Source: an uncultured Acidimicrobiaceae bacterium
Lineage (GTDB): Bacteria; Actinomycetota; Acidimicrobiia; Spongiisociales; UBA5794
Direction: 5' to 3'
NCBI GenBank assembly: GCA_947258375.1
Contig: CAMYIJ010000015.1
Coordinates: 1,817-65,816 of the forward strand
Length of the DNA stretch: 64,000 nt
Shown piece by piece: positions 676 to 64,000 of the stretch. Within the stretch, counting starts at the first letter, position 1; every line of letters begins with the position of its first letter. Made by a program: the position numbers and the translations under genes. Below the pieces are notes generated by a model. The model was not told where the DNA came from, searched no databases, and worked only from the letters and a program-made list of their open reading frames with translations.

Positions 676-718
676 TTTCCTCAACTCTCTCTGGGCCGCC
701 GAGCCGGTCCTAATCCTG

Positions 719-964
719 TCATCCGCCACTGATGGCCGGGAGGAAGTGCACTTCCGACTCGGGGCCCAGCGGCAGATAGTCGGCGTTGGCCATCACCTCC
801 CCATCGATCGCGACCGCGATACCCTCCCGGAGACGACCTTTCATATCCGGGAACCTGTCCTCGAGCCGGTCGATCAGCTGGACAACCGAAGTGGCATCCA
901 CCTCGATCACGGTGGCACCCTCGGCTAGCTGCCGCAGTTCACCCGACAGGTGTACGCGTGCCAT
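719..964 (-). CDS. MoaD/ThiS-like ubiquitin-fold sulfur-carrier protein (81 aa, C-terminal Gly-Gly)
   Basis: 81-aa ORF ending ...FLPAISGG*. The length and GG terminus are typical of the MoaD/ThiS family. Overlaps the 3' end of the Mo-subunit gene by ~26 nt. Confidence 0.55.
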   Translation of the reverse strand: MARVHLSGELRQLAEGATVIEVDATSVVQLIDRLEDRFPDMKGRLREGIAVAIDGEVMANADYLPLGPESEVHFLPAISGG

Positions 965-26448: not shown

Positions 26449-26599
26449 CCCCGCGCGCCTTCCGGCTCGGTGACTATCCACCAAATATAGACCGCCCGCT
26501 CCACAGCGGACCTTCTGGGAAGTCACCCTATTGCCGGGTACTTACCGATCGCCTCACCCACCCAGGTCGGAGACCCGGCGACGGGCCCGGTCGAGGCGC

Positions 26600-26856
26600 G
26601 AAGGGTCCGGTGGAGTCTGACACCCGGAGGGGAGAGACCGGCCCGCAGGGCCAGAGGGGGCGCCACCTGACCGTGATCCCCGTCCGAAGCTCCCTGCTCC
26701 CACCTGGTGCCCGCACCCTGGTACCGGGAGTCAGCTCAGGCGATGCGCCCCCCTACCCGCCTTCGGCGGGGCCCTTCACCCCCCTCCGGGGGGACACATC
26801 GCAGACCCCGAGTTTGGCGCCAGCCAAACTCGCAAGGAACGCCGTAGGCGTTCCCG
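26600..26856. repeat. partial, inverted copy of the element next to tRNA-Ala
   Basis: Right-TIR-like CCCGGAGGGGAGAGACCGG at ~26625-26643, plus the 35-nt module CAGCCAAACTCGCAAGGAACGCCGTAGGCGTTCCC abutting the tRNA. Confidence 0.45.
26836..26854 (-). terminator. perfect hairpin GGAACGCC-uacg-GGCGUUCC immediately 3' of tRNA-Ala
   Basis: 8-bp GC-rich stem with a 4-nt loop directly downstream of the tRNA 3' end. The same 32-nt module recurs inverted at ~34386..34420. Confidence 0.4.
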
Positions 26857-26930
26857 TGGAGCTGAGGGGATTTGAACCCCTGACCCCCTGCATGCCATGC
26901 AGGTGCTCTGCCAGGCTGAGCTACAGCCCC
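26857..26930 (-). tRNA. tRNA-Ala (anticodon GGC)
   Basis: Reverse complement reads GGGGCUGUAGCUCAGCCUGGCAGAGCACCUGCAUGGCAUGCAGGGGGUCAGGGGUUCAAAUCCCCUCAGCUCCA. It has a G3:U70 identity pair, a 5-bp anticodon stem (CCUGC/GCAGG) with loop AUGGCAU, and TPsiC UUCAAAU. CCA is not encoded. Confidence 0.85.
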
Positions 26931-32550: not shown

Positions 32551-34055
32551 GTCGCCTCCCAGCGGCCTATCTCGGGGTCATCTTGCGTAACCCGGCTCCT
32601 CACCGTGAATGCCGAGTCGCCCGAGAGCACACCGCCGCGGCCGAAGAGCCTCCCGAATTGCCAATTGGACAGTCCCAGCTCGGGCCGATCGAGAGCGAAC
32701 TGGCCATCCACCCAGCGGGTGAACCCGTTACCGACGAAGGGCGAGTCGATCGTGTTGAAGAACATGTCATGCCGCTCAGGAGACTCGGAGATCAGCGAGG
32801 CGGCAAAGCGGGGACTCTGGTCGTTGAAGGCGGCGACAGCGGCTGACACATCCGGCACGATAACCAGTGTCACCTCGGGGCTGTCCTCCCACTCCCATTC
32901 CAGGCCGAGGCTGTCACGGCCTATCGGCTCGGTGCGGGGCTCGACGACCTCTCCCCCGGCGCGGGCGATCGCCGCGTCGGCAAACCAATCGGCCGGGATC
33001 AGAGCTTCGTCGCCGGCGGCGACGTGAAGCTTGGGGCTGACCCCGCGCGCCTCCGCAGCCCGGGCCAGGCCGGAGAGAAAGCGCGGCACGAGCTCGGCCG
33101 CCCGGTCGGCCACGATGGCGCAGGTGTTGAGGGTGTTGCAGACCTTGCGGTCGAGTGAGTTGTAGACGGCGGCCTCGAGCACACTGCCGTCGGCGTCCTC
33201 GGCGGCGATGATCCAGGCACCGCCGGTGCCGTGAAGACTCACGGGAATCCCGCCCTGGCGAGCGACGGCCCCGAGTTGGGCGACGGCGGCCCCGGAACCA
33301 CGGGCGACGGCGAGGCTGAGCCGTGGATCCGAGAACAGCGCCCAGCCGGCTGCCCTGTCCGGTGAGGCAACGAGCGAGACGGCGCCGGGCGGGAGACCGG
33401 CCGCGGCGAGGGCCGGGTCGAGGGCGTGCTCGACAATGGCGCGGGCGGTACCGAGGGCATCGGAACCGATACGAAAGACCACGGTGTTGCCGCCTCGCAG
33501 CACGCCGGTGGCGTCGGCGAAAACGTTCGGTCGGCCTTCGAACACGAACCCGATCACTCCGAGGCCGCTGCGGACCTGGTCGACGCGCCAGCCGTCGTGG
33601 TGGACCTGCTCGATGACTTCACCCCGCGTCGTGGGAGCGTCCCCCCAGGTGCGCAGCCCGGCGACCATCGCCGCCCGCATCCCGTCGCTTAGAACGAGCC
33701 GCGTTGTCGAGCGTGACCGCTGCCGCGCTTGCTCGACGTCTTCCGCGTTGGCTGCTGCGATCGGGGCAAATGCATCGTCGGATTCGAGGCGGGCGGCGAA
33801 CTCCTCGTAGAAACGCGTGATCTGGTCGTCGGTCACGGATCCCATCGCGGCGAAGGCGTCGACGGCCCGGGACACTGCTCCCGTCGCGATGTCCCAGGGA
33901 CCCTGCGGAATGTGCAGCAGGGCACCGCTGTCCTGGACAACCACGAGGCGATCGCCCGGTTCGAACTCACCCGCCAACTCCGCGGACACCACGGCAACCC
34001 GATTCCCCCCATAGGGGATCGCCATTCCAGCCTCGAGCCGGAGAAGATCAGTCAT
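32547..34055 (-). CDS. ProA-like glutamate-5-semialdehyde dehydrogenase-family protein with N-terminal extension
   Basis: GIPVSLHGTGGAWIIA and a catalytic-Cys context ...LDRKVCNTLNTCAIV resemble ProA (ALDH fold). 502 aa, ~70-80 aa longer than typical ProA. 4-nt overlap with coxD. Confidence 0.6.
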   Translation of the reverse strand: MTDLLRLEAGMAIPYGGNRVAVVSAELAGEFEPGDRLVVVQDSGALLHIPQGPWDIATGAVSRAVDAFAAMGSVTDDQITRFYEEFAARLESDDAFAPIAAANAEDVEQARQRSRSTTRLVLSDGMRAAMVAGLRTWGDAPTTRGEVIEQVHHDGWRVDQVRSGLGVIGFVFEGRPNVFADATGVLRGGNTVVFRIGSDALGTARAIVEHALDPALAAAGLPPGAVSLVASPDRAAGWALFSDPRLSLAVARGSGAAVAQLGAVARQGGIPVSLHGTGGAWIIAAEDADGSVLEAAVYNSLDRKVCNTLNTCAIVADRAAELVPRFLSGLARAAEARGVSPKLHVAAGDEALIPADWFADAAIARAGGEVVEPRTEPIGRDSLGLEWEWEDSPEVTLVIVPDVSAAVAAFNDQSPRFAASLISESPERHDMFFNTIDSPFVGNGFTRWVDGQFALDRPELGLSNWQFGRLFGRGGVLSGDSAFTVRSRVTQDDPEIGRWEAT

Positions 34056-34083
34056 ACGAAGAATCTAGTAGCAGAAAGGTATC

Positions 34084-34301
34084 TCCTCCCCCGTTGCACG
34101 CCGCTTTGGGCGGGCAACGTCTGGGGGAGGTGGGCGGCGACGAAGGAGCCGCTCGGAGGGGGAAGCCAAGACAGTCCGAACAGCTCGCGACGCGGACACG
34201 AACCATGCCAGACGCTGATCCCGCGCCTCCGCAACCCCCCTCGGCTCCTCGTACCTCGTCGCCACTCCCCCAAACATTTCCGACTACGTCGTCAAACGGG
34301 G
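34084..34301. repeat. GC-rich ~220-nt intergenic element with terminal inverted repeats (copy A1)
   Basis: Bounded by ATCTCCTCCCCCG...AACGGGGGGAGAGAC. Shares ordered internal modules with 43594..43816: GGGCGGCGACGAAGGAGCCGC, GACGCTG(A/G)TCCCGCGCCTC(C/T)GC(A/T)ACCCCCCTCG, CTCCCCC(C)AAAC. Confidence 0.6.
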
Positions 34302-34315
34302 GGAGAGACACACAC

Positions 34316-34559
34316 GCCGACATGTCTCCTCCCCTCGCGAGCGCAGCGAGTGTTGGAGAAGGTGCCCGAGGAACGAGGGCGGAGGGGGGAACGCCTTCGG
34401 CGTTCCTTGCGAGTTTGGCTGCGGAGAAGCTAGGGGGCGCGGCGGACAGCTTCTGTCGCGGTCACAGCCGCCCGAGACGTTTGTCTCGCGCCTTTGCCAG
34501 GAGTTGCGTAGCAACTCAAAGGAACCCGCAGGGTTCCCATCACCTGATACCTTCTCAGT
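34316..34559. repeat. second, diverged tandem copy of the element (A2) containing the 35-nt tRNA-associated module
   Basis: Begins GTCTCCTCCCCTCGCGAG (like copy B's left end). Contains GGGAACGCCTTCGGCGTTCCTTGCGAGTTTGGCTG, the reverse complement of 26822..26856, and GGCGCGGCGGACAGC as in B. Confidence 0.5.
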
Positions 34560-35228
34560 ATGGCCACGACCGTCGTTCTAGCTGAGGACAATTACCTGAT
34601 GCGAGAAGCACTCGTCTCGCTTCTAGGCACCCTCGACGAAGTAGCGCTCGTCGCCGTGTGCGAGAACTACGACGAGTTGATCGAGACCGTCGATGAGCTT
34701 CGACCGGAAGTGGTCATCACCGATATTCGTATGCCGCCGACCCAAACCGACGAGGGAATCCGTGCCGCCAACCACATCCGTGAGCATTTTCCGGAGACGG
34801 GAGTGGTTGTGCTCAGCCAGTACGTCGAGCCGGAGTACGCATTGCGGCTATTTCGCGACGGGTCTTCAGGGCGGGCGTATCTCCTCAAGGACCACGTGGG
34901 GAACATCGACGCTTTGACCGCCGCTATGGCGGAGGTGAAAGGGGGCGGATCAACCGTCGACCCGCAGGTCGTCGAGGTCTTGGTGGCGGCGCGAATCAGG
35001 GAGAAGGAGTCTTTGCTGCAACGGCTCAGCCCGAGGGAGCTCGAGGTCTTGGCGGAAGTGGCGAAGGGCCTCAACAACGCCAGCATCGCGAATGCCCTGT
35101 TCATCTCACAGCGAGCCGTGGAAAAGCACATCGGCGCCATCTTCAGCAAACTCGACCTGTCGTTCGAAGACGCCACCCACCACCGGGTCCGCGCCGTCTT
35201 GCTCTATCTGGCGGAAACGGGGCCGTGA
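34560..35228 (+). CDS. LuxR/NarL-family response regulator
   Basis: REC domain (VVLAEDNYLMREAL...VVITDIRMP) plus a C-terminal LuxR HTH (LSPRELEVLAEVAKGLNNASIANALFISQRAVEKHI). Confidence 0.85.
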   Translation: MATTVVLAEDNYLMREALVSLLGTLDEVALVAVCENYDELIETVDELRPEVVITDIRMPPTQTDEGIRAANHIREHFPETGVVVLSQYVEPEYALRLFRDGSSGRAYLLKDHVGNIDALTAAMAEVKGGGSTVDPQVVEVLVAARIREKESLLQRLSPRELEVLAEVAKGLNNASIANALFISQRAVEKHIGAIFSKLDLSFEDATHHRVRAVLLYLAETGP

Positions 35229-35302
35229 CGTAGTGTTGACCGCACCCTTTGTGGCGGGCTCATGCCCTGGACAATGGGCGTCTATGGTCGCAGGCTCAGT
35301 GG

Positions 35303-35683
35303 ATGGATCAGATGGCTGACGTGCGCGTCCTCATCGTCGATGACCAGCTTCCCTTCCGCGAAGCCTCGCGTATGGTCGTGGAGATGACCGACGGCTTCGA
35401 GGTCGCCGGCGAAGCTGAGAATGGTGAAGAGGGCGTCGAGATGTCGCGGGCCCTCGGCCCCGACCTGGTTCTCATGGATGTCCAGATGCCCGGCATCGAT
35501 GGGCTCGAGGCCACCCGGAGAATCAGGCAGCTCGACAACCCGCCTCACGTGGTCGTGATGTCCACCCACGAGTCTGGCGACTATCGGGAAACGGCGTTGA
35601 CCGCTGGCGCGGACGCGTTCATCCCCAAGTCCGAGTTCAGCATGGACGCTCTCGAAGAACTGTGGGGTCAGGTCAGCGGCTAA
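35303..35683 (+). CDS. single-domain response regulator (receiver only)
   Basis: [14 protein letters not shown]...[16 protein letters not shown]...VVMSTH. Its 3' end overlaps the convergent kinase gene by 4 nt. Confidence 0.7.
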
Positions 35684-37812
35684 ACACCGACCCGATCGCC
35701 GATCGGCACCGTGCCCCGGACCGTTGTGCCCGATCCAGGTGCCGATTCGAAGCTCAAACTACCGGCGATGGCGTCGATACGGTCAGACATGTTCGCCAGC
35801 CCGGATCCCGCGGCGACGGTTGCCGGGTCGAATCCGCCCCCGTCGTCGGTTACTTCGAAGCTGAGCTGCCCACCGGTCTCCCGCAGGGCGACTGAAGTAG
35901 TTGACGCTCCGGCGTACTTGGCGATGTTCTGCAGTGCCTCGAGGATTGTGAAGTACACGGCAGCTTCGACCTCACGTGAGTATCGACCGACGCCGTCCGC
36001 CTCGACGTCGATGCGGAGCGCAGCTCTTTGGGTCTGATTCGATATCGCAACCGGCAGGCCCTCGGCCTCGAGAAGTGGCGGGTAGACCCCCCCGGAAAAC
36101 GCCCTAACGGCACGGATCGCTTCGCCGGCGTCTGATTCGAGCTGTGCCAGGATCTCAGCAGTCTTGGCGGCACCGGCCTGGGCGGCCAGCTTGCGGGTCG
36201 GTCCCAGCATCACCTTGAGCGCGACCAGCTGCTGTTGTGGCCCGCTGTCGAGGTCGCGCTCCAGAGCCCTTCGCGCTTCGTCGGCAGCGGCCAGAATCCG
36301 CTCGCGGGAGGCCTCCAGTTCTGCTACGTGCTCTCGCAGCTTCGCAGTCAGCCTGGAGTTGCGCAGGGCCAGACCCATTCCGCCGGCGAGACTCGCAATC
36401 AGCTGCTCTTCGGCAGAGGGGAGCTCCTCGCCGCGGGCCTTGTTCAACGAGAGCCCTCCGAGGAGTTCGCCGTCGTGGAACACGGGCAAGGAGTAGTCCG
36501 CGTTCGGGTCCGCGAACGTGTCCGTTCCGGTGATCGCCTCGGGCGCGGCGGTCTCGGGCCAGGTGGCGGTGGCGTGGAATCCCTCGTCGATATGCACCCA
36601 GATGGTGGCCTCGGCAGCCGCCGTGCCGTCGACTATCAGCCGGGGAATTCGCCAGAGCAACTCGTCATCCGACGCTTCCGCAGCCCGATGCGAGAACCGG
36701 GCGAGCACCTCATACGGTGTCGCCCGCTGCCCGTACACGAGCCGATTAGCCCATTCCTGCGCCCGCCGACGCATGGGCCCGAATGCGATTGCTACCAGCG
36801 CTGTTGCTGCCACCTGAATGATGAAATCCGCCCCATCACCCGATCCGAACAGTGACCCCACTCCGACCACGACGGCTACGTACAATCCGGACAGGACGAT
36901 GGCCAAGGTGCCGACCACCACAGTCTTGTTGATCACGACGTCGATGTCGTAAAGCCGGTACCTGCCGACTGCGATCCCGTATGAAGCGATGAAAACGGCA
37001 GCCGCCACCATGAGCGGAACCACCAGCAGACCCTCGTTCGATTCTCCTCCGAGCAGGATCGCCGCAATGAGAGCCGGCCCGAATACGGAGGCACCCCACA
37101 CGATCCATTTGAACTGTTGCCTAGCAACGCCGACGCTGCGTCGGAATCGACCAACCAGAGCGACGAGTGACAGGATTGTGGCGGCGATCGCGGCGGTTGC
37201 TCCGGCGTCGGCCAGGGCTCCTTGATCGACCGCCATGCTCCCCGGGCGATAGCTCCACGCGGCGCCCGCTGCCGCCGCGAGGATGCTGACGGCGGCCAAT
37301 GCGCCGACCCAGCGCCAGCGAGGCGCGGGCAATCTGCCGTCGGGGAACAAGAGGAAACCAAACGTTGGAATGGCGAGAATCGCCGCCACCACGCTCCACT
37401 CGCTCACAATCAAGGTCACCGCCGCCGGCGCAGAGAGATCGGCAGGAATGGAAGGTGCGCCCAAGATCAGAGCGGGATCGTCGACCGCCCACAGCGCGAC
37501 ACCCGCGCGCCCGGCGACGTCAAGGCCACAGAGGGCGGCAATGGCGGCCATGACCCACACCACCGCGTTGCGGGGCTGTTGGGGGATCACCAGCCAGGCG
37601 ACGATGGCGAAGAACAGTGCCAGCAACCCAGCGAACGCCAGGAACTCTCTCCACCACAATTCGGCATGCCCGGCGGTGATGAGCATCGCCGACCCGATCA
37701 CGGCGAGAGTGCCACCGAGTGCGACGACCGCCCGCAGGACTATCACCAATGTGCGATCGGCCTCCCTACCGGGCTGATCCACCGCCGCACGCGTCTCTAC
37801 TCGCACGCTCAT
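35680..37812 (-). CDS. sensor histidine kinase: multi-TM N-terminus, GAF, HisKA_3, HATPase_c
   Basis: ~8 predicted TM helices, a GAF-like region, the H-box ...[15 protein letters not shown]... (HisKA_3, NarL-type partner), and a C-terminal ATPase (G-box [10 protein letters not shown]). Start MSVRVE by ORF arithmetic. Confidence 0.8.
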
Positions 37813-39938
37813 GTCGACTCCAGCACTTCGCCGGCTACGGGAAGCTGCAGCGTGATTGCTGTCCCTTCCTCGGAGGGGACAACTGCCAACGTTCCGCCAA
37901 AGGCGTCGACTCGATCCTCGAGCGCAGTGAACTTTGTCCCACCATTTGCCGAGTCGAATGTCACGGCGACGGACAGCCACGTATTGTCACCTTGAATTTT
38001 CACCTCAGCGGACTTGGCCCCCGCCATCTCGCCCCGGTTCAGCGCCGCCAGCACGCAGAAGTAGATGGTTTCCTCGACTTGCCGCGAGTATCGGGGGATG
38101 TCTTTCGATTCAATCCGGATCTGGAGCTGGACAGTGCGGGTGGTGGCCGCCAAGGCGGGGCCGAGGCCTTCGGCTTCGAGCAGTGGCGGATAGATCCCTC
38201 TGGCGACGGTTCGCATGGCGTCTACGGCCTCTTGGGTGCCGGCTGCAAGAGATGCAATCCTTTCGGTCAGGTCGGCTGCACCTTCGCGCCCTGCGAGGTT
38301 CTGGGCGAGGCCGAGCTTGACCTTGAGCGCCACGACCTGTTGCTGAGCGCCGTCATGAAGGTCGCGTTCCAAGCGGTGGCGGGCGGCGTCGTGCGCCGCG
38401 ATGAGGCGTCGCCTCGAACCTTGGAGTTGATCCGCCCGCTGGACCAGCTCTGCGTTGAGTCGCAGATTACGTAGCAGCAGGCCGGCCCCGGCCGCGACGT
38501 CTGCCAGCAGGTCTTCGTCGGCCGGGGTGACCGGGTGGGCCCGCGGCTTGGCGATGCTGAGGGCGCCGAGCAATTCGCCGCCATGAACCACGGGCACCGA
38601 CAGCTGGAATTCGGAGTTGGGCATGTCGTCGTCGACGCCGATGTCGGATGGATGGGTCGGGACATCGGCCGGTGAGGAAGCTTCCGCGCGGAGGCGCTCG
38701 GCCACTCGGAGCCACACGACGGCGGTTTCGGCCGCTGTGCCGTCGCGAAGGAGCTGAGCGAGCCCCTCGAGCCCGGCGCCAGCCGAAGTGTCCGACAGTT
38801 GAGATGTCAGTTGCGACAGCACCTCCGTGGGCGCCGCCCGTCTTCCGTAGACGATGCGGTTGGCCCAGCGCTGCAGCCTCGCGCGAATCGGTTCGAACAC
38901 GATCGCCACCAACGCCGTGGCTCCCAAGGGCAGCGTGAGGCCCAGGTCGCCTCCTCGCTGGGATTCATCACCGAAGACGAATATGTACGCGAGTACCGCG
39001 GCGCCGTAGAGAGCCGAGATCACCACCGCAAGCGACAGGTAGGCCACCGTCCTCGAGACCACCACATCGATCTCGTACAACCGGTACTTCGTGATAGCCA
39101 TCGCAAAGGCCGCGATCAACAGAACTTCTCCCGCAGCCATCGCAACCGCGCCCGTTCCTGTGAGCGATGTCTTCTCGGTGACGAGCGCCCAGATCACCGC
39201 CATGCTGAGGAACGTGGCACCCCAGCCGATCCAGCGAATCTGGCGTCGGACAATTCCCGAACTGCGCCGATAGCGGACGACGAGCGCGGCTATCCCGAAC
39301 ACCGCGCCAAAGATTGCCAGGACGTCCAGCGTCTCGGAGATCTGAAGGTCCAACCTGTCAAACGCCGAGTCTGGCGGGTCCAGGACGGATTGTGTGACGG
39401 AGGGCCGGACCAGCCATATCGAAAAGCCTACGGCAAGCGACATCGTGATCACGCTGTACCGGCTCGCCCACCTCCACCTTGAAGAGGGCAGCTTGCCGTC
39501 GGGGAAGCGCAGGAGCCCCAACGCCAGGATCAGGCAGAAGACCGGGAGCCAGGCCCAGACCGCGGGCTGCATGGCAAGTGCCACCGGCAACGGTACGCCT
39601 GCCGGGGTCAACCCTTCCGCCACGTCCACAGTGAACTCTGGGAATGACCCGTGACCCCACACAACGATTACGGCAAAGCCGGCGGCGAACAGTGCTCCGA
39701 AGGACGCAGCCCCGACCAGAGCCCACACCACTCCGTTGCGAACTTCCGTGTCAATCGTCAGCCAAACGAGCGATCCGAAGCCGACTGCGAGAATGCCCAG
39801 GTGGACGACGCCCTGGTCGAAGAAGAAGTCCCAGCCGCCGAGTACGGCGACGATTCCCATGCTGAGGAGAGCCACGATCGCCGCGAAGGCGGCGAGCACC
39901 CTCCCCCACGTGATCAAGGTGTGGTCCTGGAAGTTCAC
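37809..39938 (-). CDS. sensor histidine kinase paralogue (multi-TM, GAF, HisKA_3, HATPase_c)
   Basis: Same architecture and collinear similarity to the downstream kinase: [32 protein letters not shown] vs RRRLIAAHDAARHRLERDLHDGAQQQVVALKV. GTG start overlaps the cyclase stop (GTGA). Confidence 0.8.
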   Translation of the reverse strand: MNFQDHTLITWGRVLAAFAAIVALLSMGIVAVLGGWDFFFDQGVVHLGILAVGFGSLVWLTIDTEVRNGVVWALVGAASFGALFAAGFAVIVVWGHGSFPEFTVDVAEGLTPAGVPLPVALAMQPAVWAWLPVFCLILALGLLRFPDGKLPSSRWRWASRYSVITMSLAVGFSIWLVRPSVTQSVLDPPDSAFDRLDLQISETLDVLAIFGAVFGIAALVVRYRRSSGIVRRQIRWIGWGATFLSMAVIWALVTEKTSLTGTGAVAMAAGEVLLIAAFAMAITKYRLYEIDVVVSRTVAYLSLAVVISALYGAAVLAYIFVFGDESQRGGDLGLTLPLGATALVAIVFEPIRARLQRWANRIVYGRRAAPTEVLSQLTSQLSDTSAGAGLEGLAQLLRDGTAAETAVVWLRVAERLRAEASSPADVPTHPSDIGVDDDMPNSEFQLSVPVVHGGELLGALSIAKPRAHPVTPADEDLLADVAAGAGLLLRNLRLNAELVQRADQLQGSRRRLIAAHDAARHRLERDLHDGAQQQVVALKVKLGLAQNLAGREGAADLTERIASLAAGTQEAVDAMRTVARGIYPPLLEAEGLGPALAATTRTVQLQIRIESKDIPRYSRQVEETIYFCVLAALNRGEMAGAKSAEVKIQGDNTWLSVAVTFDSANGGTKFTALEDRVDAFGGTLAVVPSEEGTAITLQLPVAGEVLEST

Positions 39939-41248
39939 GATTCTCTCCTCGGGAACCGGTACGCCATGACCGGTGCTTCTCGCCCCTTCACGAGAGCCGG
40001 CTCGAGTTCGTCGACCTCGATCGCTTGAGTACAGGCCTCCCAGGTAGCGCGGGTCATCACCGTTTCGCCGGGCTCGGCCCACTGCTGGATTCGCTGGGTG
40101 AGGTTCACGGTGTCGCCAACGACCGTCCACTCGAGGCGTTCCTCCGAGCCCAACAGCACGGCAGCTACCTCTCCCGTAGACAGCCCGATTCCCAGTTCGA
40201 AGGGCTCTTTGTCTGCAGGCGCCCACACATCATTGAGCTCGGCCTGAGCAGCGTGAATGGCGATGGCGGCGTCGACGGCGTGTTGGGCGTGGTCGTCCTG
40301 AGGGACCGGCGCGCCAAAAACGGCAATGACGGCGTCGCCGGCGAACTGCATGATTGTGCCGCCCGCGTCGAGGATGGCGTGGTTCATGGCGGCCCGGTGC
40401 TCGTTCAGCTGGCCGGCCAGGACGCTGGGATCGGTCCGCTCGGCGATCGAGGTGTATCCGCGGATGTCTGCCATCAGGACGGTGACCGTCAGCTCTTCGG
40501 TCTCGCCGAGGCGCTGTTTATCGTGGCGCAGCTTGTCGGCGACGCCACCCGGGAGCAGCCGTCCCAGCGTCTCGCCGAGTTCCTCGCGTTCCACAATGGC
40601 CTGGTGAAGTTTCTTGAGTCTCTCCAGGCTCCCCGCCTTGCCAGTTGAGAGGCCTTCGGCGAGCTTCATGAAGAGCTGCTCGATCCCGGCGTCGACGCGT
40701 TCGGGGGTGGTCTTGCGGACGGCCGCGATCGCCTTGATTGGCTTGCCCTCGGCGACCAGCTGCAGCAGGTCTTCTTCCTCAGTACTAAGCGCGCTGTCTT
40801 CGCTGATCGGAGCGGTCAGGGCTTCGACGATCTTCGGATCGAGCATCGATCCGCCGATGGCGACTTCGCGGACTGCCCGTGCCAGCTGGTCGCCCTCACC
40901 AACACGATCCTTGAGCAGGTAGGCGTATCCGGCGGCACCTTGGGCAAGCAGACTCACCGCGTATTCAGGGTCGTCGTATTGCGACAGAATCACCACACCG
41001 GTACCCGGATGGCGTTTGCGAATCTCGATGGCGGCGTCGATGCCTTCTCTCTGAAAGTTGGGCGGCATCCGGATATCCGTGACCACCACCTGTGGGTTGG
41101 CGCTTTCGGCCCCGCCGACAAGCTCGTCGTAATCGGCTGCCGTGCCGACGATGTCGAAGTCGTCCTCCAAATCGAGAAGTGCCTTGACACCCTCGCGCAC
41201 GATCAGGTTGTCGTCTGCCAGGAACACGGAGATAGTGGACGGTTCCAT
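39935..41248 (-). CDS. response regulator fused to class III adenylate/guanylate cyclase (REC-HTH-like-CHD)
   Basis: N-terminal REC (ISVFLADDNLIVREG...VVTDIRMPP); C-terminal cyclase homology domain (VTVLMADIRGYTSIAERTD...QFAGDAVIAVFGAP...GLSTGEVAAVLLGSEERLEWTVVGDTVNLTQRIQ). Confidence 0.8.
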   Translation of the reverse strand: MEPSTISVFLADDNLIVREGVKALLDLEDDFDIVGTAADYDELVGGAESANPQVVVTDIRMPPNFQREGIDAAIEIRKRHPGTGVVILSQYDDPEYAVSLLAQGAAGYAYLLKDRVGEGDQLARAVREVAIGGSMLDPKIVEALTAPISEDSALSTEEEDLLQLVAEGKPIKAIAAVRKTTPERVDAGIEQLFMKLAEGLSTGKAGSLERLKKLHQAIVEREELGETLGRLLPGGVADKLRHDKQRLGETEELTVTVLMADIRGYTSIAERTDPSVLAGQLNEHRAAMNHAILDAGGTIMQFAGDAVIAVFGAPVPQDDHAQHAVDAAIAIHAAQAELNDVWAPADKEPFELGIGLSTGEVAAVLLGSEERLEWTVVGDTVNLTQRIQQWAEPGETVMTRATWEACTQAIEVDELEPALVKGREAPVMAYRFPRRES

Positions 41249-41377
41249 AGTCCAACTCTCGCGCGATTCGAACCGCGGGGCCAGGGTGGATTCCCCCGGA
41301 TGAAGGTGGGGTACTCCCCACCTGTGCCGGCAGGCTGGCACCCTCGACTTCGCGATGGCAGTTGGTAACTTGTTGAC

Positions 41378-42070
41378 ATGAAGCGGTTACCGGCAGCCTT
41401 CGTTGGTCTCGAATCGAGGACGGTTACGGTGATCCACGATCCGGGCGGCCCGTCTGAGAAGCACATCAAAGCCCAGGCCGATATTGACGCATACCGCGGG
41501 ATATTCCCCGTTTCCACGCCTATCTCCTGCGGCGATGTGGTCGAGTACGGAGACGGCTCCGGTACGCCTACTCGCCTGGTCGTAGCGGACTATCGGATCT
41601 TCGAACTCGTGTCTCCCAGCCACACGGACGTGTTTTGGGAAGGTGCCCTGCCACACCGTTCGGGAGCACCCGGGCTCCGCCTCTCGGATCTCCATCCCGA
41701 ACTGATTGCCGCTACGGGGGATCTCTTTGTCGACGGCTCGTACTCGAGGGCGGTTGTGGAAGCGTTGCTCGCGCTCGAACACCGGGTGAGCCGGCAAAGC
41801 GGGATCGACGCCACCGGCAGTGATCTTATGACACAGGCCTTCTCTGGCGAACCCGCTCCGGTAGCCATCGCAGTGCTGGACGGGGCAGACGGCCGTGCCG
41901 AGCAGGAAGGCCTCCGGCTTCTGTTCACCGGTGTGGTCGAAGGAATAGAGACGCCGAAGCGCCATGAGCTGCTGCATCGCGACAGCCCGGAACGGACACT
42001 CGAGCAGCTGGCGATGGTGAGTTCGCTATTCCATCTGCTCGATCGCGCCTACCACCGAACAGCGGACTAG
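41378..42070 (+). CDS. hypothetical protein with C-terminal TIGR02391/Hypoth_Ymh (Abi-C-like) domain
   Basis: C-terminal ~120 aa LHPELIAATGDLFVDGSYSRAVVEALLALEHRVSRQSG...GSDLMTQAFSG...EQEGLRLLFTGVVEGIETPKRHEL...LEQLAMVSSLFHLLDRA matches my recollection of that family consensus. The N-terminal ~100 aa are unknown. Confidence 0.5.
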   Translation: MKRLPAAFVGLESRTVTVIHDPGGPSEKHIKAQADIDAYRGIFPVSTPISCGDVVEYGDGSGTPTRLVVADYRIFELVSPSHTDVFWEGALPHRSGAPGLRLSDLHPELIAATGDLFVDGSYSRAVVEALLALEHRVSRQSGIDATGSDLMTQAFSGEPAPVAIAVLDGADGRAEQEGLRLLFTGVVEGIETPKRHELLHRDSPERTLEQLAMVSSLFHLLDRAYHRTAD

Positions 42071-42098
42071 ACATGGGCCGCGGCGCTATCTTGCCCTG

Positions 42099-42569
42099 AT
42101 GTCCTACCAGTGGGCGAAGTACCTGCATCTCATGGCTGCTGCGCTCTTCATTGGCGTGCACGGCGCGTCGATGGTGGTGTTCTATGTGATCCGAGGCGAG
42201 ACCGACCGCAAGCGGATTGAATCGCTGCTGGCCTTTTCTGCTCGCACCGTCATGCCCATGTACATCTCGATGGCGCTGGTGGTTGTGACCGGAGTACTGG
42301 TCGGTGGCAAGATCGGCGCATTCGACCGGGGATGGGGATGGTGGTCGATCGTTTTGCTCGGCGTTGTCTCAGCACTGATGTGGATATTCGCCAAGCCCAT
42401 CCACGTCCGCGTGGCGGCAGCCCTCGAGGTGCGACCCTCCGGCGTGCCCCGGGTGGCCGACGAGGACCTACCTTCGATCCTGAGCACGCCGCACACCCAC
42501 GTCGTTACCGGTATCGGGCTTGCCGGCATCGCCGGGCTCATCTACCTGATGACGTTCAAGCCGTTCTGA
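42099..42569 (+). CDS. small integral membrane protein (4 TM, DUF2269-like)
   Basis: Four hydrophobic helices; MSYQWAKYLHLMAAALFIGVHG... Confidence 0.6.
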   Translation: MSYQWAKYLHLMAAALFIGVHGASMVVFYVIRGETDRKRIESLLAFSARTVMPMYISMALVVVTGVLVGGKIGAFDRGWGWWSIVLLGVVSALMWIFAKPIHVRVAAALEVRPSGVPRVADEDLPSILSTPHTHVVTGIGLAGIAGLIYLMTFKPF

Positions 42570-42572
42570 TAG

Positions 42573-43568
42573 TCACGCCGGAGGCAGCGGCCGAGATGCC
42601 GGCCCCTGCACCACGGCTCCGTCCGGGCCGAAACGTGAACCGTGGCAAGGGCAGTCGAAGGTGCGTTCAGCAGGGTTCCACGCCACGATGCAACCGAGAT
42701 GGGTACAGCGCGCCGATAGCAAGTGGGTCGCGCCGTCGTCGTCGACGAAAGCCGCAAGCTGCTCACCATGGCGATCAACGACGCCACCCTCCCCCGGCGA
42801 TAGCTGCGATTCGAGCTGGCGTATGGTGCGCGACACAAAGACGTCGACGGCAGCATGGTCCAGCACCGCCTTGGGGACCGACCCCAGCAAGACGCCGCGC
42901 ATTCCAGTCATGCCCTTGTTGCCGATCACGATGAGATCGCTTCCGGCACCCGCCGCTGCCTCGATTATCTTCCCCGCCGGATCTCCCTCGAGCAGGTGAA
43001 TGGAGCTGGCGACATCATCTCCGTAGACGGCGACTGTATCGGTGGTGGTGAGCTCGCCGGTGGCGCGGCGACCAACGAATATGAGATCCACCGTCGCATC
43101 CAGGGAGCGAGCGAGGTCGAATCCACGCCGCGCGGCGCGATCCGCAGTCGCGGATCCGTCGGTGGCGATGGCGATCTTCCGATACGGGACGCTCCCATCA
43201 TGGGGCCGCGGTGTCACCACCAGCAGGTCGCATGGAGCCTCGTGGGAGAGCCGGTGTACTGCGTGTGCCGGGCGGCGTCCTCCACGGTCGACCACGATCA
43301 ACCCGGCATCCAATCTCTCCGCGGCTGCGGCAACGAGATCGGCGAGGTTGCCGGTATGTGATGTCGTGCCGACTCTCCAGCCGGGTATCCCGGACATCAT
43401 GACCGTCGCAGCAATATCGGCCATTGCGCTGTCGTGAACGGCATCCTCAGTACCGGCATGGACGATTTCGATCCGGGTGTCGCCGATGGCCGCAAGTGCC
43501 CCCGCGATAGCCAGGGCGGACGCGTCCGGAGTACCGTCGCTTCCGACCACGATTCGCCCGAATTCCAT
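42573..43568 (-). CDS. tandem universal stress protein domains fused to a C-terminal Rieske [2Fe-2S] domain
   Basis: Two UspA-like halves (IVVGSDGT... and IAIATDGS...IVIGNKGMTGMRGVLLGSVPKAVLDHAAVDVFVS), then CTHLGC...CPCHGSRF (Rieske CxH...CxxH). Confidence 0.75.
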   Translation of the reverse strand: MEFGRIVVGSDGTPDASALAIAGALAAIGDTRIEIVHAGTEDAVHDSAMADIAATVMMSGIPGWRVGTTSHTGNLADLVAAAAERLDAGLIVVDRGGRRPAHAVHRLSHEAPCDLLVVTPRPHDGSVPYRKIAIATDGSATADRAARRGFDLARSLDATVDLIFVGRRATGELTTTDTVAVYGDDVASSIHLLEGDPAGKIIEAAAGAGSDLIVIGNKGMTGMRGVLLGSVPKAVLDHAAVDVFVSRTIRQLESQLSPGEGGVVDRHGEQLAAFVDDDGATHLLSARCTHLGCIVAWNPAERTFDCPCHGSRFGPDGAVVQGPASRPLPPA

Positions 43569-43593
43569 CTCGTGGAGAATACCGCGCAGCGAA

Positions 43594-43816
43594 AGTCTCT
43601 CCCCTCGCGAGAGTCGGCGAGCGCTGGGGCCGGGAGATGGGCGGCGACGAAGGAGCCGCCCGAAGGGGAAAGCCGAGGCGCGGCGGACAGCTCTAGTCAC
43701 GACCGCAACCGCGTCCGACGCTGGTCCCGCGCCTCTGCTACCCCCCTCGCCTCGCAAAGCCTCGGCACTCCCCCCAAACGTCACCCGCCGAAGACGGCGT
43801 GTGACGGGGGGAGAGA
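43594..43816. repeat. GC-rich ~220-nt intergenic element with terminal inverted repeats (copy B)
   Basis: GTCTCTCCCCTCGCGAG...GACGGGGGGAGAGACCGG fills the whole divergent intergenic region between the Usp-Rieske and LLM genes. Internal modules are collinear with A1. Confidence 0.6.
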
Positions 43817-43833
43817 CCGGTAGCCTCCCGCCA

Positions 43834-44760
43834 ATGGATCTAGCACTACAGGTGGTCGGCGACTACGACCACGTCTTGAACGCTGCCCGGCTGGCGCACT
43901 CGGGAGGGGCGGTGGCGGTATCGCTTGCCGACCACTACCTCTACGGCGCGAGCCGGGAGCGCTACACGGACCCGACCTACGACAGCTTCGTCCAGGCGGC
44001 CGCTCTCGGACGGGACACCACCGATATCGAGATTGTGATGTTGGTGTCGCCGATCACGTTCCGCCATCCGGCGTTCTATGCAAAAGGTGCCATCACGATC
44101 GACGAGCTATCCGGCGGCCGCTTCGTAATCGGCATCGGGACCGGATGGCACCACGACGAGCACGAACTCTTTGGCATCCCGTACCCGGACCGCGGCGAAC
44201 GCTTTGGCATGCTCGAAGACGCCCTCGGCTACCTGCGCCGGTTCTTCGACGATCCGCAGCAGGGATTCGAGTCGGACCGCTACCGCTTCGAAGGCCTCGG
44301 CTACCAGCCTCGAGCCCGCTCCGATCTGCGCATCCTCGTGGGCGGCACCGGTGAGAAGCGCACGCCGCGCCTGGCGGGGACGTTCGGCGGGGAGTTCTCG
44401 ATCGCCGAAACACCTCCGGACGGTGTGGCCCCGCGCGTAACCCGCGCGAGGGAAGCGGCGGCTGCCACCGGACGAGACCCGGACGCGTTGCTGGTCTCGA
44501 TGACCGCGGCCGTCATCAGCGGCGGGACGGACGCCGAGATCACCGACAATCTCGGCCGCTTCGGAGAGGCCACCGGCCAGAGCGGGCCGGAGCTACGGGA
44601 ACAGTGGGAGGGGCGCGGCCTCGTCTTCCGGACTTGGGAGGAGCACGTCGATCGGTTCGGCCTGTTTAAGGCTGCGGGAATAGAGCGGATCTACATTCAG
44701 CTCGCCACCCGGGTCGCCGACCACGCCGCGGAGTGCCTCGAACGGTTCCGCGGGATATAG
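43834..44760 (+). CDS. LLM-class (luciferase-like) F420-dependent oxidoreductase
   Basis: Bacterial luciferase fold signatures ...GGRFVIGIGTGW.... Start MDLALQ by ORF arithmetic; the ORF-track start at 43477 lies in the repeat element. Confidence 0.8.
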   Translation: MDLALQVVGDYDHVLNAARLAHSGGAVAVSLADHYLYGASRERYTDPTYDSFVQAAALGRDTTDIEIVMLVSPITFRHPAFYAKGAITIDELSGGRFVIGIGTGWHHDEHELFGIPYPDRGERFGMLEDALGYLRRFFDDPQQGFESDRYRFEGLGYQPRARSDLRILVGGTGEKRTPRLAGTFGGEFSIAETPPDGVAPRVTRAREAAAATGRDPDALLVSMTAAVISGGTDAEITDNLGRFGEATGQSGPELREQWEGRGLVFRTWEEHVDRFGLFKAAGIERIYIQLATRVADHAAECLERFRGI

Positions 44761-54486: not shown

Positions 54487-54774
54487 AAATCTCCTTAAAG
54501 GGCGCCGCGCTCAAGCCGGTATGCGCGCAGCGGGCGCCATGGTTGTCCGATGATCGGATGACGGACGAACAGGCGAGGGGGAGGACGGACGTACCACGGA
54601 ATAAAGCTGTCATACGCAGCGGAACGCAAAGGTTCGGCATGGGTGTCCTTGGCCGGTTCATCGTCGGCCGCGCAGCGGCCCGATCGGAATGTCAGAGTAG
54701 CACAGACTCTCCGTGCTCCTTTCCATAGGTATCGGACGAGATGAGCGCGGAGTTCAGCGAAAGGTGTCGCGGAG

Positions 54775-54950
54775 TACTCAGTACTCAGTATCCAGTACTC
54801 AGTACGCGCCGCACCTGTTCGCACGATCTGAGTACTGAAGCGAGGCGCCAGCCGAGCGCTACTGACTACTGACTACTGAGTACTGAAGCGAGGCGCCAGC
54901 CGAGCGCTACTGACTACTGATTACTGATTACTGCTTCTGCGTTCGCCTCG
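54775..54950. repeat. heptanucleotide (TACTGAN / inverted GTACTCA) tandem arrays plus a duplicated ~50-nt unit, downstream of and overlapping the tdk 3' end
   Basis: GAGTACTCAGTACTCAGTATCCAGTACTCAGTAC, then two copies of GAGTACTGAAGCGAGGCGCCAGCCGAGCGCTACTGACTACTGA, then CTACTGATTACTGATTACTG. This is lower in GC than the surrounding sequence. Confidence 0.7.
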
Positions 54951-55537
54951 GACAGATCGATCGCCAGCGTTTCCTGCTGGGGCTCCTGGGGGTCGTAACA
55001 ACGCCGGCACCGCGCCTCGTAGGAGTCGGTGGCGCCGAGCACAACGAGTTCCTCCGATTCGACGACGCGTTGGGTGTGTAAACCGGGTCCTCCGCAGCGG
55101 TGGCACACCGCCAGGCTCTTGGTGATGTACTCCGCCTTCAACATCAACGATGGAATGGGCTCGAAGGGACGCCCCAGGTAGTCGGTATCGAGACCGGCCA
55201 CGATCACCTGCTTGCCGGCGTCTGCCAGAAGGACCGCCACCTCGGTCAACCCGTCGTCGAAGAACTGGCCCTCGTCGATACCGACGACGATCGTACGATC
55301 CTCCACGGCCTTGAGCAGGTCCTGGCTCGTCTCGACGGGGACTGCCGGAGTGCTGAGGCGGGAATGGGACACCACCTCACCGACCGCGTAGCGAATGTCG
55401 AGAGCCGGCTTGAACACCTGCGTCGGAACGCGGGCCAGCTCGTAGCGGGTGATCCGCCGGATCAGCTCCTCTGATTTCCCGGAAAACATGGGCCCCGCGA
55501 TGACCTCAATCCAGCCCTGACCCGCTCTCCGATGCAT
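54914..55537 (-). CDS. tdk: thymidine kinase
   Basis: AGPMFSGKSEELIRR P-loop, and a Zn-ribbon C...C...CxxC near the C-terminus (CHRCGG...CRRC). The last five codons (VISNQ*) are encoded by the heptamer repeat. Confidence 0.85.
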   Translation of the reverse strand: MHRRAGQGWIEVIAGPMFSGKSEELIRRITRYELARVPTQVFKPALDIRYAVGEVVSHSRLSTPAVPVETSQDLLKAVEDRTIVVGIDEGQFFDDGLTEVAVLLADAGKQVIVAGLDTDYLGRPFEPIPSLMLKAEYITKSLAVCHRCGGPGLHTQRVVESEELVVLGATDSYEARCRRCYDPQEPQQETLAIDLSEANAEAVISNQ

Positions 55538-55554: not shown

Positions 55555-55620
55555 CGCGGCTAGTACTGGATACTGAGTACGGAGTACTGACATACTGAGT
55601 ACGGAGTACTGAGTACTGAC
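55555..55620. repeat. heptanucleotide TACTGAG/TACGGAG/TACTGAC array upstream of tdk
   Basis: TAGTACTGGATACTGAGTACGGAGTACTGACATACTGAGTACGGAGTACTGAGTACTGACCTACTCA. The rodA stop codon (TAG) lies in the last unit. Confidence 0.7.
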
Positions 55621-61213: not shown

Positions 61214-61401
61214 GAAAGCCTTACTCGAGGACAAGCCCGCGAAATTCCGAACACGAAGTGTAGCCCGATGTAGCCCCTGCGCACCAAAGGCGGGGTTGAG
61301 AATTCTGCGGATTCCGGCAACCCTGCCGGGTTGCGGTGGAGTTGCTGCGCAACTCCTGGAGCCGGTTTCGGTAGTGTTGAGATACGGAACGCGAGGAGGG
61401 C

Positions 61402-62112: not shown

Positions 62113-62129
62113 ACCAGCGGCGCGGACAA

Positions 62130-63512: not shown

Positions 63513-64000
63513 ACAGTGAACGCTACTGCGAGCTTCCAGGTTCCGGAAGGCTGGTGATCCGCCGCCCTAGGTGTGGTGCCCGCAGACGTTGTTGGCACTC
63601 GCTGGGGACGAGTGCCCAGGCCGCTGGCGCCTGATGAGACACGAAGTGTCGTGACCAGCAGTCGAGGCCGATCCTGGGGGTGCGGCTCGGGGAGGTTTTG
63701 CGGGAGGGGCGTGGGCCGGGTTCAGCGATCGGTGTGGTTCGTGTCGCTTTCGCCTGAGACCGCGGCGTGTCGCATAGTTTGTAGGGCCGAGCGACTCGTT
63801 GAGGGCGCGGGCGAAGGCTCCGGCGTCGGTGGTTCCCCGTCAAGCGGTTCGCCCGGTGGGGCTGGAGTCGGTTCGGCCTGGATCGATGAAGTGGTTTCGG
63901 TGGTCGTCGAGCGGGTTGAGGCAATGTGCCTCTAGTTGGGGGGTGGGGCTCGGGTGACACCGGGGGCGAGGAATCGTCTCCGTTTCGGTGGAGAGTGGGG

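What the first reader, a model, noticed from the sequence alone, without database searches (positions are those of the whole stretch)
34084..34559. Family of ~220-nt GC-rich mosaic intergenic elements with terminal inverted repeats (MITE-like), three loci in 64 kb
Copy A1 (34084-34301) and copy B (43594-43816) are collinear ~220-nt elements. Both are bounded by inverted termini GTCTC(C)TCCCC ... GGGGGGAGAGAC and share internal modules (GGGCGGCGACGAAGGAGCCGC; GACGCTGNTCCCGCGCCTCNGCNACCCCCCTCG; CTCCCCCAAAC). A1 is followed by a second diverged copy (A2, 34316-34559). A third locus next to tRNA-Ala (26600-26856) carries the right terminus plus a 35-nt module that is the exact inverted copy (1 mismatch) of one in A2; this module contains the perfect hairpin GGAACGCC-nnnn-GGCGTTCC. 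All copies occupy divergent or promoter intergenic regions (ProA-like/LuxR-RR, Usp-Rieske/LLM, ADH/tRNA) and contain no ORF. This fits a non-autonomous mobile element family. Alternatively it may be a conserved structured RNA or regulatory module acting on adjacent stress and signalling genes.
Basis: seen in the sequence. Interest (0 to 1): 0.6.

Follow-up and report, generated by a model that had tools for sequence, protein, structure and literature searches.

The report
Palindromic mosaic intergenic repeat family
These are copies of an undescribed family of roughly 220-base, non-coding, hairpin-forming repeats that are scattered and reshuffled between genes in an uncultured Acidimicrobiia-like bacterium: a new example of a familiar kind of selfish bacterial DNA, not a new regulatory RNA.

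Summary
The repeat is real. A1 (34081-34309) and B (43595-43817) are collinear, 74% identical over 190 nt (E 1e-27), with termini (T)GTCTCYTCCCC...GGGGGGAGAGAC(A). A2 (34324-34498) is a copy truncated at its 3' end. It carries a 50-nt insert copied from the tRNA-Ala 3' flank. The tRNA-side locus "C" is not a detectable family member.

A metagenome scan found three more loci with full, partial and tandem copies at unrelated sites. Relatives differ at the same position:
- B is reduced to a 20-nt stub in L094.
- A2 is absent from L094 and L095.
- L103-L105 carry another variant, tandemly duplicated.
- L100 has one copy, L099 only a 25-nt terminus-terminus palindrome, L109 nothing.

Both strands fold equally well. 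Hairpin stems covary and modules are shuffled between copies. There is no Rfam match, no coding capacity and no target-site duplication, and no partner transposase could be looked for.

A1/A2 and B bracket, in direct orientation, a 9-kb signalling-gene island. Island-free relatives have one copy, a remnant or nothing at that junction.

Verdict: a new MITE/BIME-like palindromic mosaic repeat family whose way of spreading is unknown. The structured-RNA or regulatory reading is not supported. Interest is modest.

The parts
34081..34309 (+). A1: full-length element (229 nt). Left terminus ATCTCCTCCCCC, right terminus GGGGGGAGAGAC. It starts 13 nt from the putative -10 box of the aldehyde dehydrogenase gene.
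   Evidence: Folds far better than shuffles on both strands. An ortholog is present in L094 and L095.
34324..34498 (+). A2: copy truncated at its 3' end. It keeps the left terminus (T)GTCTCCTCCCC and the central part and has no right terminus. Absent from L094 and L095.
   Evidence: nhmmer E 9.5e-17 over model positions 2-154; alignment with relatives; sequence.
34387..34436 (+). 50-nt insert inside A2: an inverted copy of the tRNA-Ala 3' flank (hairpin GGAACGCC-TTC-GGCGTTCC followed by TTGCGAGTTTGGCTG).
   Evidence: Inverted repeat I1; 97% over 35 nt.
34499..34537 (+). Separate two-hairpin module (GAGTTGC-GTAG-CAACTC, then GGAACCC-GCA-GGGTTCC) that follows A2. It is not part of the 220-nt family.
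   Evidence: 84% over 44 nt to 61316-61359.
43595..43817 (+). B: full-length element (223 nt) filling the gap between the putative -10 boxes of the Usp-Rieske gene (13 nt away) and the luciferase-like monooxygenase gene (3 nt away). L094 has only a 20-nt remnant here.
34560..43568 (.). About 9-kb signalling-gene island bracketed by A1/A2 and B in direct orientation: LuxR response regulator, response regulator, two sensor-kinase-type genes, response regulator-cyclase, Ymh, a hypothetical gene, Usp-Rieske. Absent from L099, L100, L101 and L109.
   Evidence: Pfam on window proteins; gene tables of the syntenic locus L094 and of island-free relatives; junction alignment.
26806..26855 (-). Resident 3' flank of tRNA-Ala (two hairpins). 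It is the probable source of the 50-nt insert in A2 and is conserved at the orthologous place in L093 and L094.
26626..26640 (+). Terminus-like GGAGGGGAGAGACC in locus C. The match is weak and not shown to belong to the family.
   Evidence: chance-level; no profile hit.
61316..61359 (-). Second copy of the two-hairpin module, upstream of mreB. It lies where relative L098 carries 1.5 copies of the 220-nt element.

Best explanation
A1, A2 and B belong to an undescribed family of about 210-230-bp non-coding, GC-rich, palindromic mosaic repeats. The host is an uncultured Acidimicrobiia-like actinobacterial lineage.

Anatomy (shown):
- The termini are 5'-(T)GTCTCYTCCCC ... GGGGGGAGAGAC(A)-3'.
- The body is three stem-loops, each closed by the same C-run/G-run pair (CTCYCCCC with GGGGRGAG). 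They enclose small hairpins whose sequences differ between copies but always pair.
- The same runs can instead pair end to end, giving one long foldback.

Behaviour:
- Copies sit at unrelated intergenic sites (shown).
- Arrays grow locally by tandem duplication (shown for L103-L105).
- Copies exchange modules by recombination or gene conversion (inferred from module combinations).
- Copies decay by internal deletion, leaving remnants made only of termini (inferred from L099 and L094).

How a copy reaches a new site is not shown. I infer mobilisation in trans by an unidentified transposase or recombinase that recognises the TG...CA termini or the hairpins and leaves no target duplication.

The copies lie between the putative -10 boxes (TANNNT, 6-7 nt before the start codon) of divergent, apparently leaderless genes. 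An insertion there leaves the core promoters intact, so the copies are tolerated passengers rather than regulators (inferred).

In the window, copies in direct orientation bracket a 9-kb signalling island. Island-free relatives carry one copy at that same junction. Recombination at the elements therefore probably accompanied gain or loss of the island (inferred).
For: Real and more than chance:
- (A1 against B, E 1e-27).

Dispersed family:
- The termini-plus-CCCAAAC pattern found 3 metagenome contigs. All three are strong profile matches, E 1e-46 to 1e-59, with extra partial and tandem copies.
- They lie at different loci: beside a tRNA-like 3' end (L096), abutting a truncated hydrolase ORF (L097), and at the locus syntenic to window 61369-63551, where the window has no copy (L098).

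Variation at orthologous sites:
- B against a 20-nt stub in L094.
- A2 absent from L094 and L095.
- L103-L105 carry a different, tandemly duplicated variant.
- L100 has one copy, L101 a degenerate one, L099 a 25-nt terminus-terminus palindrome, L109 none.
- A1 is 63% identical to its ortholog, against about 84% for the aligned flanking DNA.

Hairpin architecture:
- Folding z-scores are -3.7 to -6.1 as RNA and -4.0 to -4.8 as DNA.
- 91% of cells pair, against 57-59% in slid controls. The covariation score is 0.197 against 0.126 in shuffles, reached by 0 of 500.
- Hairpin H2 forms in 10 of 10 copies, with at least 6 different stems.

Other points:
- DNA-level palindrome: both strands fold about equally well.
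- Module shuffling: all four combinations of left-hairpin type and right-hairpin type occur.
- Non-coding: six-frame and ORF translations have no real homologs.
- Not a known RNA.
- Several contigs carrying copies (L097, L098, L103, L104, L105) end inside or within about 25 nt of a copy. That is expected of a multicopy repeat that breaks short-read assemblies.
- Island bracketing.
Against: - No target-site duplication flanks 5 of 6 full copies.
- No transposase or other mobility gene was seen near any copy.
- No clean filled-versus-empty site pair shows a fresh insertion. Both polymorphisms that show remnants (B in L094; L099) point to deletion.
- Copy number per genome is unknown. There are only 3 copies at 2 loci in 64 kb, none elsewhere in about 150 kb of related DNA, and only 3 exact-pattern hits in the whole metagenome collection.
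- Covariation of the hairpins means something selects for pairing. That could be a host function rather than a requirement for mobility.
- Gain and loss of the island cannot be told apart.
Confidence: 0.65

Rival explanations
1. REP/BIME-type elements in the strict sense. The hairpin modules are recognised as single-stranded DNA by a RAYT-like HUH (Y1) transposase encoded once in the genome. This would explain the lack of target duplications, the structure-not-sequence conservation and the clustered arrays.
For: No target-site duplication. Hairpins are kept by covariation with variable stems. Modular mosaic make-up and arrays. Strictly extragenic.
Against: The units are about 220 nt with clear long terminal inverted repeats, not 20-40-nt palindromes. 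Arrays are head to tail, not alternating. No conserved GTAG-type tetranucleotide is evident. No Y1 transposase was seen in the window or the fetched loci, though those gene tables cover little of any genome.
Confidence: 0.15
2. A functional cis-regulatory element or structured RNA, such as a leader, small RNA or promoter insulator, acting on the adjacent stress and signalling genes.
For: Significant covariation of the hairpins. Positions are exact between the putative -10 boxes of divergent genes. A1 is retained at the orthologous site in L094, L095 and L100.
Against: There is no Rfam match, even at E up to 5. Neither strand folds consistently better. No canonical promoter or terminator lies inside. 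Neighbours are unrelated genes in other genomes: a tRNA-like end, a hydrolase, a 90-aa gene. Close relatives manage with a 20-25-nt stub or nothing at the same promoters. Truncated and tandem copies are common.
Confidence: 0.08
3. Site-specific or structure-specific recombination sites (att- or attC-like) whose role is capture or excision of gene islands. A1 and B would be the two junction sites of the 9-kb island.
For: Direct-orientation copies bracket the island. Among island-free relatives, L100 has a single copy and L099 and L101 have remnants at that junction. Structure is conserved while sequence varies, as in attC sites.
Against: No integrase or recombinase gene lies in or beside the island. 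L094 keeps the island with B reduced to a stub. Most other copies flank no cassette and form gene-less arrays. There are no attC-type R/L boxes. Ordinary homologous recombination between dispersed repeats explains the bracketing equally well.
Confidence: 0.07
4. Not a family: chance similarity of GC-rich promoter regions, or one local segmental duplication.
For: The 20-mer GGCGGCGACGAAGGAGCCGC alone recurs in 92 unrelated stretches of DNA in the genome collection. Short modules by themselves are therefore weak evidence.
Against: Full-length collinear matches have E 1e-27 within the window and E 1e-46 to 1e-59 in independent metagenome contigs at non-homologous loci.
Confidence: 0.02

Closest known systems
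Bacterial MITEs with long palindromic bodies (Correia/NEMIS of Neisseria, ERIC/IRU of enterobacteria, Chunjie of Geobacter, Nezha of cyanobacteria)
   Same: Small, non-coding and intergenic. They have terminal inverted repeats of at least 10-15 bp, fold into long hairpins, and come as size variants and truncated copies. Presence varies between strains. Chunjie is 178-235 bp with many partial copies (PMC10969869). MITE definition: PMC11602168.
   Different: No 2-10-bp target-site duplication was seen. No parent insertion sequence is known. Arrays are head to tail with 4-12-nt spacers. The internal plan is three stem-loops closed by one repeated C-run/G-run motif. There is no sequence similarity to anything in Rfam, the plasmid or phage collections, or the species-representative genomes.
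REP/BIME of enterobacteria and pseudomonads, and RIME of rhizobia (mosaic clusters of palindromic units; from my own knowledge and PMC3184786)
   Same: Extragenic and GC-rich. Imperfect palindromes are combined as a mosaic of interchangeable modules. There is no target duplication. Structure is conserved more than sequence, and copies are clustered.
   Different: The unit is about ten times longer and has true terminal inverted repeats. Clusters are direct, not alternating. No RAYT gene or conserved tetranucleotide was identified. Copy number is unknown.
Small non-coding repeats (SNR/SRE) of Deinococcus radiodurans (from my own knowledge)
   Same: 60-215-bp mosaic intergenic repeats with palindromic ends in a GC-rich genome, with no known transposase partner.
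   Different: Different phylum and sequence. I did not compare them here.
Integron attC sites
   Same: Imperfect palindromes whose fold, not sequence, is conserved, lying at the borders of inserted genes.
   Different: There are no R''/L''-L'/R' boxes, no integrase and no cassette array. Most copies flank no gene.

Membership tests
MITE (non-autonomous DNA transposon) | Small size (about 50-800 bp) and no coding capacity | tested here: met
   Elements are 210-230 nt. No frame is consistently open. Translations have no real homologs.
MITE (non-autonomous DNA transposon) | Terminal inverted repeats of at least 10-15 bp | tested here: met
   (T)GTCTCYTCCCC / GGGGGGAGAGAC(A), extending to about 20 nt (GTCTCYTCCCCCGTTTGAC) in several copies.
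MITE (non-autonomous DNA transposon) | Target-site duplication of 2-10 bp flanking each copy | tested here: not met
   No flanking direct repeat in 5 of 6 full copies, and a 2-nt AT in one. Moving the boundaries by 1 nt gives none either (by eye).
MITE (non-autonomous DNA transposon) | Many dispersed copies in a genome | tested here: inconclusive
   Copies lie at 5 or more non-homologous loci across related genomes and contigs break at copies. No whole genome was available. There are 3 copies in the 64-kb window.
MITE (non-autonomous DNA transposon) | An autonomous element with the same termini supplies the transposase | not testable with these tools
No transposase appears in the window region examined or in the fetched loci.
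MITE (non-autonomous DNA transposon) | Filled and empty sites in related genomes | tested here: inconclusive
   Presence varies. The sites of B (L094) and of the L100 copy (L099) keep terminus remnants, so they are deletions. A2, and L098 against the window, have no remnant but also no target duplication.
REP/BIME | Short (20-40 nt) imperfect palindromic units, extragenic | tested here: inconclusive
   Extragenic: yes. The sub-hairpins are 15-50 nt, but the repeated unit is the whole 220-nt composite.
REP/BIME | Clusters of units in alternating orientation with defined linkers | tested here: not met
   Arrays are head to tail (A1-A2; L097; L098; L103), with 4-12-nt spacers.
REP/BIME | Associated RAYT (Y1 transposase) gene flanked by the repeats | not testable with these tools
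   No whole genome was available. None appears in the gene tables of the fetched loci.
Structured RNA / cis-regulatory leader | Match to a curated RNA family | tested here: not met
   Only chance hairpin matches to microRNA models, at E 0.07-5.
Structured RNA / cis-regulatory leader | Strand-specific structure and a constant genetic context | tested here: not met
   Both strands fold about equally well. Neighbouring genes differ between copies.
Integron attC / att site | Linked integrase and conserved core boxes | tested here: not met
   There is no integrase in or beside the island, and no GTTRRRY-type core in the termini (by eye).

The most novel reading that the evidence does not exclude
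The elements are structure-specific recombination sites that an unidentified recombinase uses to capture or shed gene islands. The 9-kb signalling island bracketed by A1/A2 and B would then be one cassette of an integron-like but unrelated system in Acidimicrobiia. The conserved folds, variable sequences and lack of target duplication would reflect recognition of folded single strands.
Probability: 0.07. Interest if true: 0.7.

Novelty: new member of a known kind. Interest (0 to 1): 0.38.

Why it matters
Small palindromic repeats shape bacterial genomes. They break assemblies, seed rearrangements and sometimes alter expression. I found none described for Acidimicrobiia, a largely uncultured class (two full-text searches returned nothing).

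This family gives a marker for strain-level variation in that lineage. It explains why metagenome contigs of the lineage end at this locus. It also offers a concrete case in which repeat copies coincide with the borders of a gene island.

It does not open a new mechanism unless a dedicated recombinase or a host function is found.

Tried and rejected
- Scan of the species-representative genomes with the 20-mer shared by A1 and B. All 92 hits match only the 20-mer itself, or a few bases more. The source species is not represented, and that module is not conserved across the family. With hindsight the scan was poorly spent.
- Plasmid and phage BLAST found nothing.
- Viral-contig pattern scans gave one chance hit, L102.
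- I tried to find copies through spurious ORFs in protein databases: a six-frame concatenated query and the 163-aa ORF across A1 and A2 against 1.84 billion representatives. There were no real hits.
- MreB-based look-ups for a second orthologous locus. Two look-ups went to over-long MreB predictions (P0122 and P0123) that turned out not to be close relatives. L108 has no element.
- Rejected: 6S-like or other known RNA (no Rfam hit; multicopy, truncated and tandem).
- Rejected: outward-facing ribosome-binding sites in the termini (the spacing to start codons is 16-26 nt, too long).
- Rejected: locus C as a family member (no profile hit).
- Rejected: canonical promoters or terminators inside the elements.

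Full report

Yes, with corrections.

- A1 (34081-34309) and B (43595-43817) are collinear over their whole length. BLAST gives 74% identity over 190 nt, E 1.2e-27 in the 64-kb window. The longest ungapped blocks are 82-83% identical.
- The termini are as described, except that A1 begins ATCTCC rather than GTCTCC.
- A2 is only a partial copy (34324-34498). It has the left terminus and the middle, and a profile search matches it over model positions 2-154 (E 9.5e-17). It has no right terminus.
- A2 contains a 50-nt insert (34387-34436) that is the inverted copy of the sequence immediately 3' of tRNA-Ala (26806-26855). The 35-nt core differs at one base. The hairpin loop there is 3 nt, not 4.
- After A2 comes a different two-hairpin module (34499-34537). 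It recurs upstream of mreB (about 61316-61359, minus strand), with a compensatory change in its second stem.
- Locus C is not a recognisable family member. Its terminus-like GGGAGAGAC is at chance level. The 50-65 nt beside the tRNA are conserved at the same place in relatives (92-96%). That stretch is therefore resident tRNA-flank sequence, of which A2 acquired a copy.
- No further copies are hidden in the window.

**2. Whose genome, and are there more copies?**

- The flanking aldehyde dehydrogenase has its named homologs in Acidimicrobiia metagenome-assembled genomes, and unnamed ones up to 94% identical. The exact proteins are not on record.
- The scan of species-representative genomes with the A1/B 20-mer returned only chance or unrelated hits.
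- A scan of metagenome contigs with a three-anchor pattern (left terminus, CCCAAAC, right terminus) returned three contigs. All three are strong family members (E 1e-46 to 1e-59).
  - L096 has a full copy 8 nt from a tRNA-like 3' end that ARAGORN does not call.
  - L097 has a head-to-tail array of a right half, a full copy and a left part. The array abuts a truncated hydrolase ORF.
  - L098 has a right half plus a full copy, at a locus syntenic with window 61369-63551. The window has no copy there.
- Nothing was found in plasmids, phages or viral contigs.

**3. Orthologous comparisons**

Contigs of relatives were fetched through the aldehyde dehydrogenase. The content of this one locus differs in nearly every lineage.

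| Relative | State at the locus |
|---|---|
| L094, L095 (about 84% nucleotide identity in aligned flanking DNA) | A1 present but only 63% identical, right terminus decayed; A2 absent |
| L094, at the B site | 20-nt stretch GTGTCTCCTCGCCGCTGCAC that still begins like the left terminus |
| L103-L105 (90-91% protein identity) | Different variant with an extra insert of about 85 nt, tandemly duplicated; all three contigs end inside it |
| L100 | One full copy |
| L101 | One degenerate copy |
| L099 | Only a 25-nt palindrome made of the two termini (GTCCTCTCTC-GGAG-GGGAGAGAC) |
| L109 | Nothing |

Several contigs that carry copies (L097, L098, L103, L104, L105) stop inside or within about 25 nt of a copy. 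That is what a multicopy repeat does to short-read assemblies. This is an inference.

**4. Anatomy**

- Each full copy folds far better than shuffled sequence, both as RNA (z -3.7 to -6.1) and as DNA (z -4.0 and -4.8).
- Across eight copies neither strand is consistently favoured. This points to a DNA palindrome, not a strand-specific RNA.
- The consensus is three stem-loops, each closed by the same motif pair: CTCYCCCC with GGGGRGAG.
  - Left: terminus with an internal G-run.
  - Middle: GGAGGGGG with CCCCCCTC.
  - Right: internal C-run with the terminus.
- The same runs can pair end to end to give one foldback rod, which is the minimum-energy fold of most copies.
- On the named structure 91% of cells pair, against 57-59% when partners are slid. 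The covariation score exceeds all 500 shuffles.
- The small hairpin H2 forms in 10 of 10 copies with at least six different stems: GGCGGC/GCCGCC, CCC/GGG, CCCC/GGGG, TCCG/CGGA, CGATCGC/GCGATCG and CCGGC/GCCGG.
- Module types are combined freely. Left-hairpin types alpha and beta occur with right-hairpin types I and II in all four combinations. The same holds for H2 types a and b. That pattern indicates exchange between copies.
- There is no target-site duplication.
- Outside the GTCTC...GAGAC core, most copies have T on the left and A on the right, giving TG...CA ends.

**5. Setting**

- All four genes next to A and B have a TANNNT hexamer 6-7 nt before the start codon.

| Gene | Hexamer | Hexamer coordinates | Bases to ATG | Start codon |
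|---|---|---|---|---|
| Aldehyde dehydrogenase | TAGATT | complement of 34062-34067 | 6 | complement of 34053-34055 |
| Usp-Rieske | TATTCT | complement of 43576-43581 | 7 | complement of 43566-43568 |
| Luciferase-like monooxygenase | TAGCCT | 43821-43826 | 7 | 43834 |
| LuxR response regulator | TGA-TACCTT | 34545-34553 | 6 | 34560 |

- This is the arrangement of leaderless actinobacterial genes. The sequence is read directly. The interpretation rests on my knowledge of mycobacterial and streptomycete promoters.
- The hexamers of both genes flanking the B site are kept in L094, where B is missing.
- Element ends lie 13 nt (left) and 3 nt (right) from these boxes, and L100 shows nearly the same spacing, 12 and 4 nt. 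The copies therefore occupy exactly the space between two divergent core promoters.
- No canonical promoter or terminator lies inside them.

**6. The island**

- In L099, L100, L101 and L109 the monooxygenase and the aldehyde dehydrogenase are adjacent and divergent.
- In the window and in L094 they are separated by about 9 kb of signalling genes.
- In the window that island has A1/A2 on one side and B on the other, all in the same orientation. A1's left flank and B's right flank correspond to the two flanks of the single copy in L100.
- This fits two routes: insertion between or at element copies, or loss of the island by recombination between direct copies. The direction cannot be settled here. 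No mobility gene lies in the island.

**7. Interpretation**

- The best reading is a selfish or neutral family of palindromic mosaic repeats of the MITE/BIME kind.
  - It is dispersed.
  - It is locally amplified by tandem duplication.
  - It is remodelled by exchange between copies.
  - It is eroded by internal deletion.
  - It is tolerated between core promoters and after tRNA-like genes.
- The step that moves a copy to a new site is inferred, not shown.
- Strict MITE membership fails on target duplications and cannot be tested for a partner transposase. Strict REP/BIME membership fails on unit size and array orientation.
- A regulatory-RNA reading is disfavoured by the lack of strand bias, the varied neighbours and the dispensability in close relatives.
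- An att-like role in island capture is not excluded, but it has no recombinase to support it.

**8. Novelty and score**

- There is no match in Rfam. Two full-text literature searches for such repeats in Acidimicrobiia or Actinobacteria returned nothing.
- Reviews define the class to which this belongs (PMC11602168, PMC10969869, PMC3184786).
- It is a new member of a known kind, and interest is modest (0.38).

Noticed in passing
window 54773-54935 and 55562-55621: The thymidine kinase gene (54914-55537, minus strand; Pfam TK) is flanked on both sides by arrays of a heptamer (AGTACTG / TACTGAG and variants). The two arrays are in inverted orientation, and one includes a 48-nt tandem duplication. 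A relative (L108) has GGATACC heptamer repeats upstream of mreB.
   Followed up: partly
window 34499-34537 and about 61316-61359 (minus strand): A separate 40-nt two-hairpin module (GAGTTGC-GYAG-CAACTC, then GGAACCC-GCA-GGGTTCC or GCAACCC-GGCA-GGGTTGC) occurs upstream of the LuxR regulator gene and upstream of mreB. Its second stem has a compensatory change. At the mreB locus it sits where L098 has 1.5 copies of the 220-nt element.
   Followed up: partly
L093 7224-8573 (relative; corresponds to window about 26806-26878): A close relative has an insert of about 1.25 kb carrying an alpha/beta-hydrolase gene next to tRNA-Ala. The last 23 nt of the tRNA are duplicated at the other end, which is the signature of integration into the tRNA 3' end. 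The window's own 300 nt on that side (26497-26805) are also unique to it.
   Followed up: no
L042 (3 copies), L066 (2 copies), L008, L030, L018, L034, L006, L027, L039, L056, L041, L061: The hairpin GGCGGC-GACGAAGGA-GCCGC(C) shared by A1 and B also sits at the 3' edge of unrelated conserved non-coding repeats in other taxa: Arthrobacter koreensis and A. luteolus (about 200-nt conserved block), Saprospiraceae, Geminicoccaceae, Aeromicrobium and Iamia. None is in Rfam. In Arthrobacter the sequence after the hairpin varies between copies, as at the end of a mobile element.
   Followed up: partly
window 34053-34067, 34545-34562, 43566-43581, 43821-43836: All four genes beside the elements have TANNNT 6-7 nt before the start codon and no Shine-Dalgarno spacing, suggesting leaderless transcripts. 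The LuxR regulator gene has an extended TGn -10.
   Followed up: partly
L097 about 500-886 (minus strand): An alpha/beta-hydrolase ORF runs for only about 130 codons before meeting the element array. This is either a gene truncated by the repeats or a chimeric short contig.
   Followed up: no
L109 369-639 and 2233-2582: Two intergenic stretches about 1.9 kb apart in the 3.69-Mb relative are nearly identical over about 270 nt. This is an unrelated local repeat.
   Followed up: no
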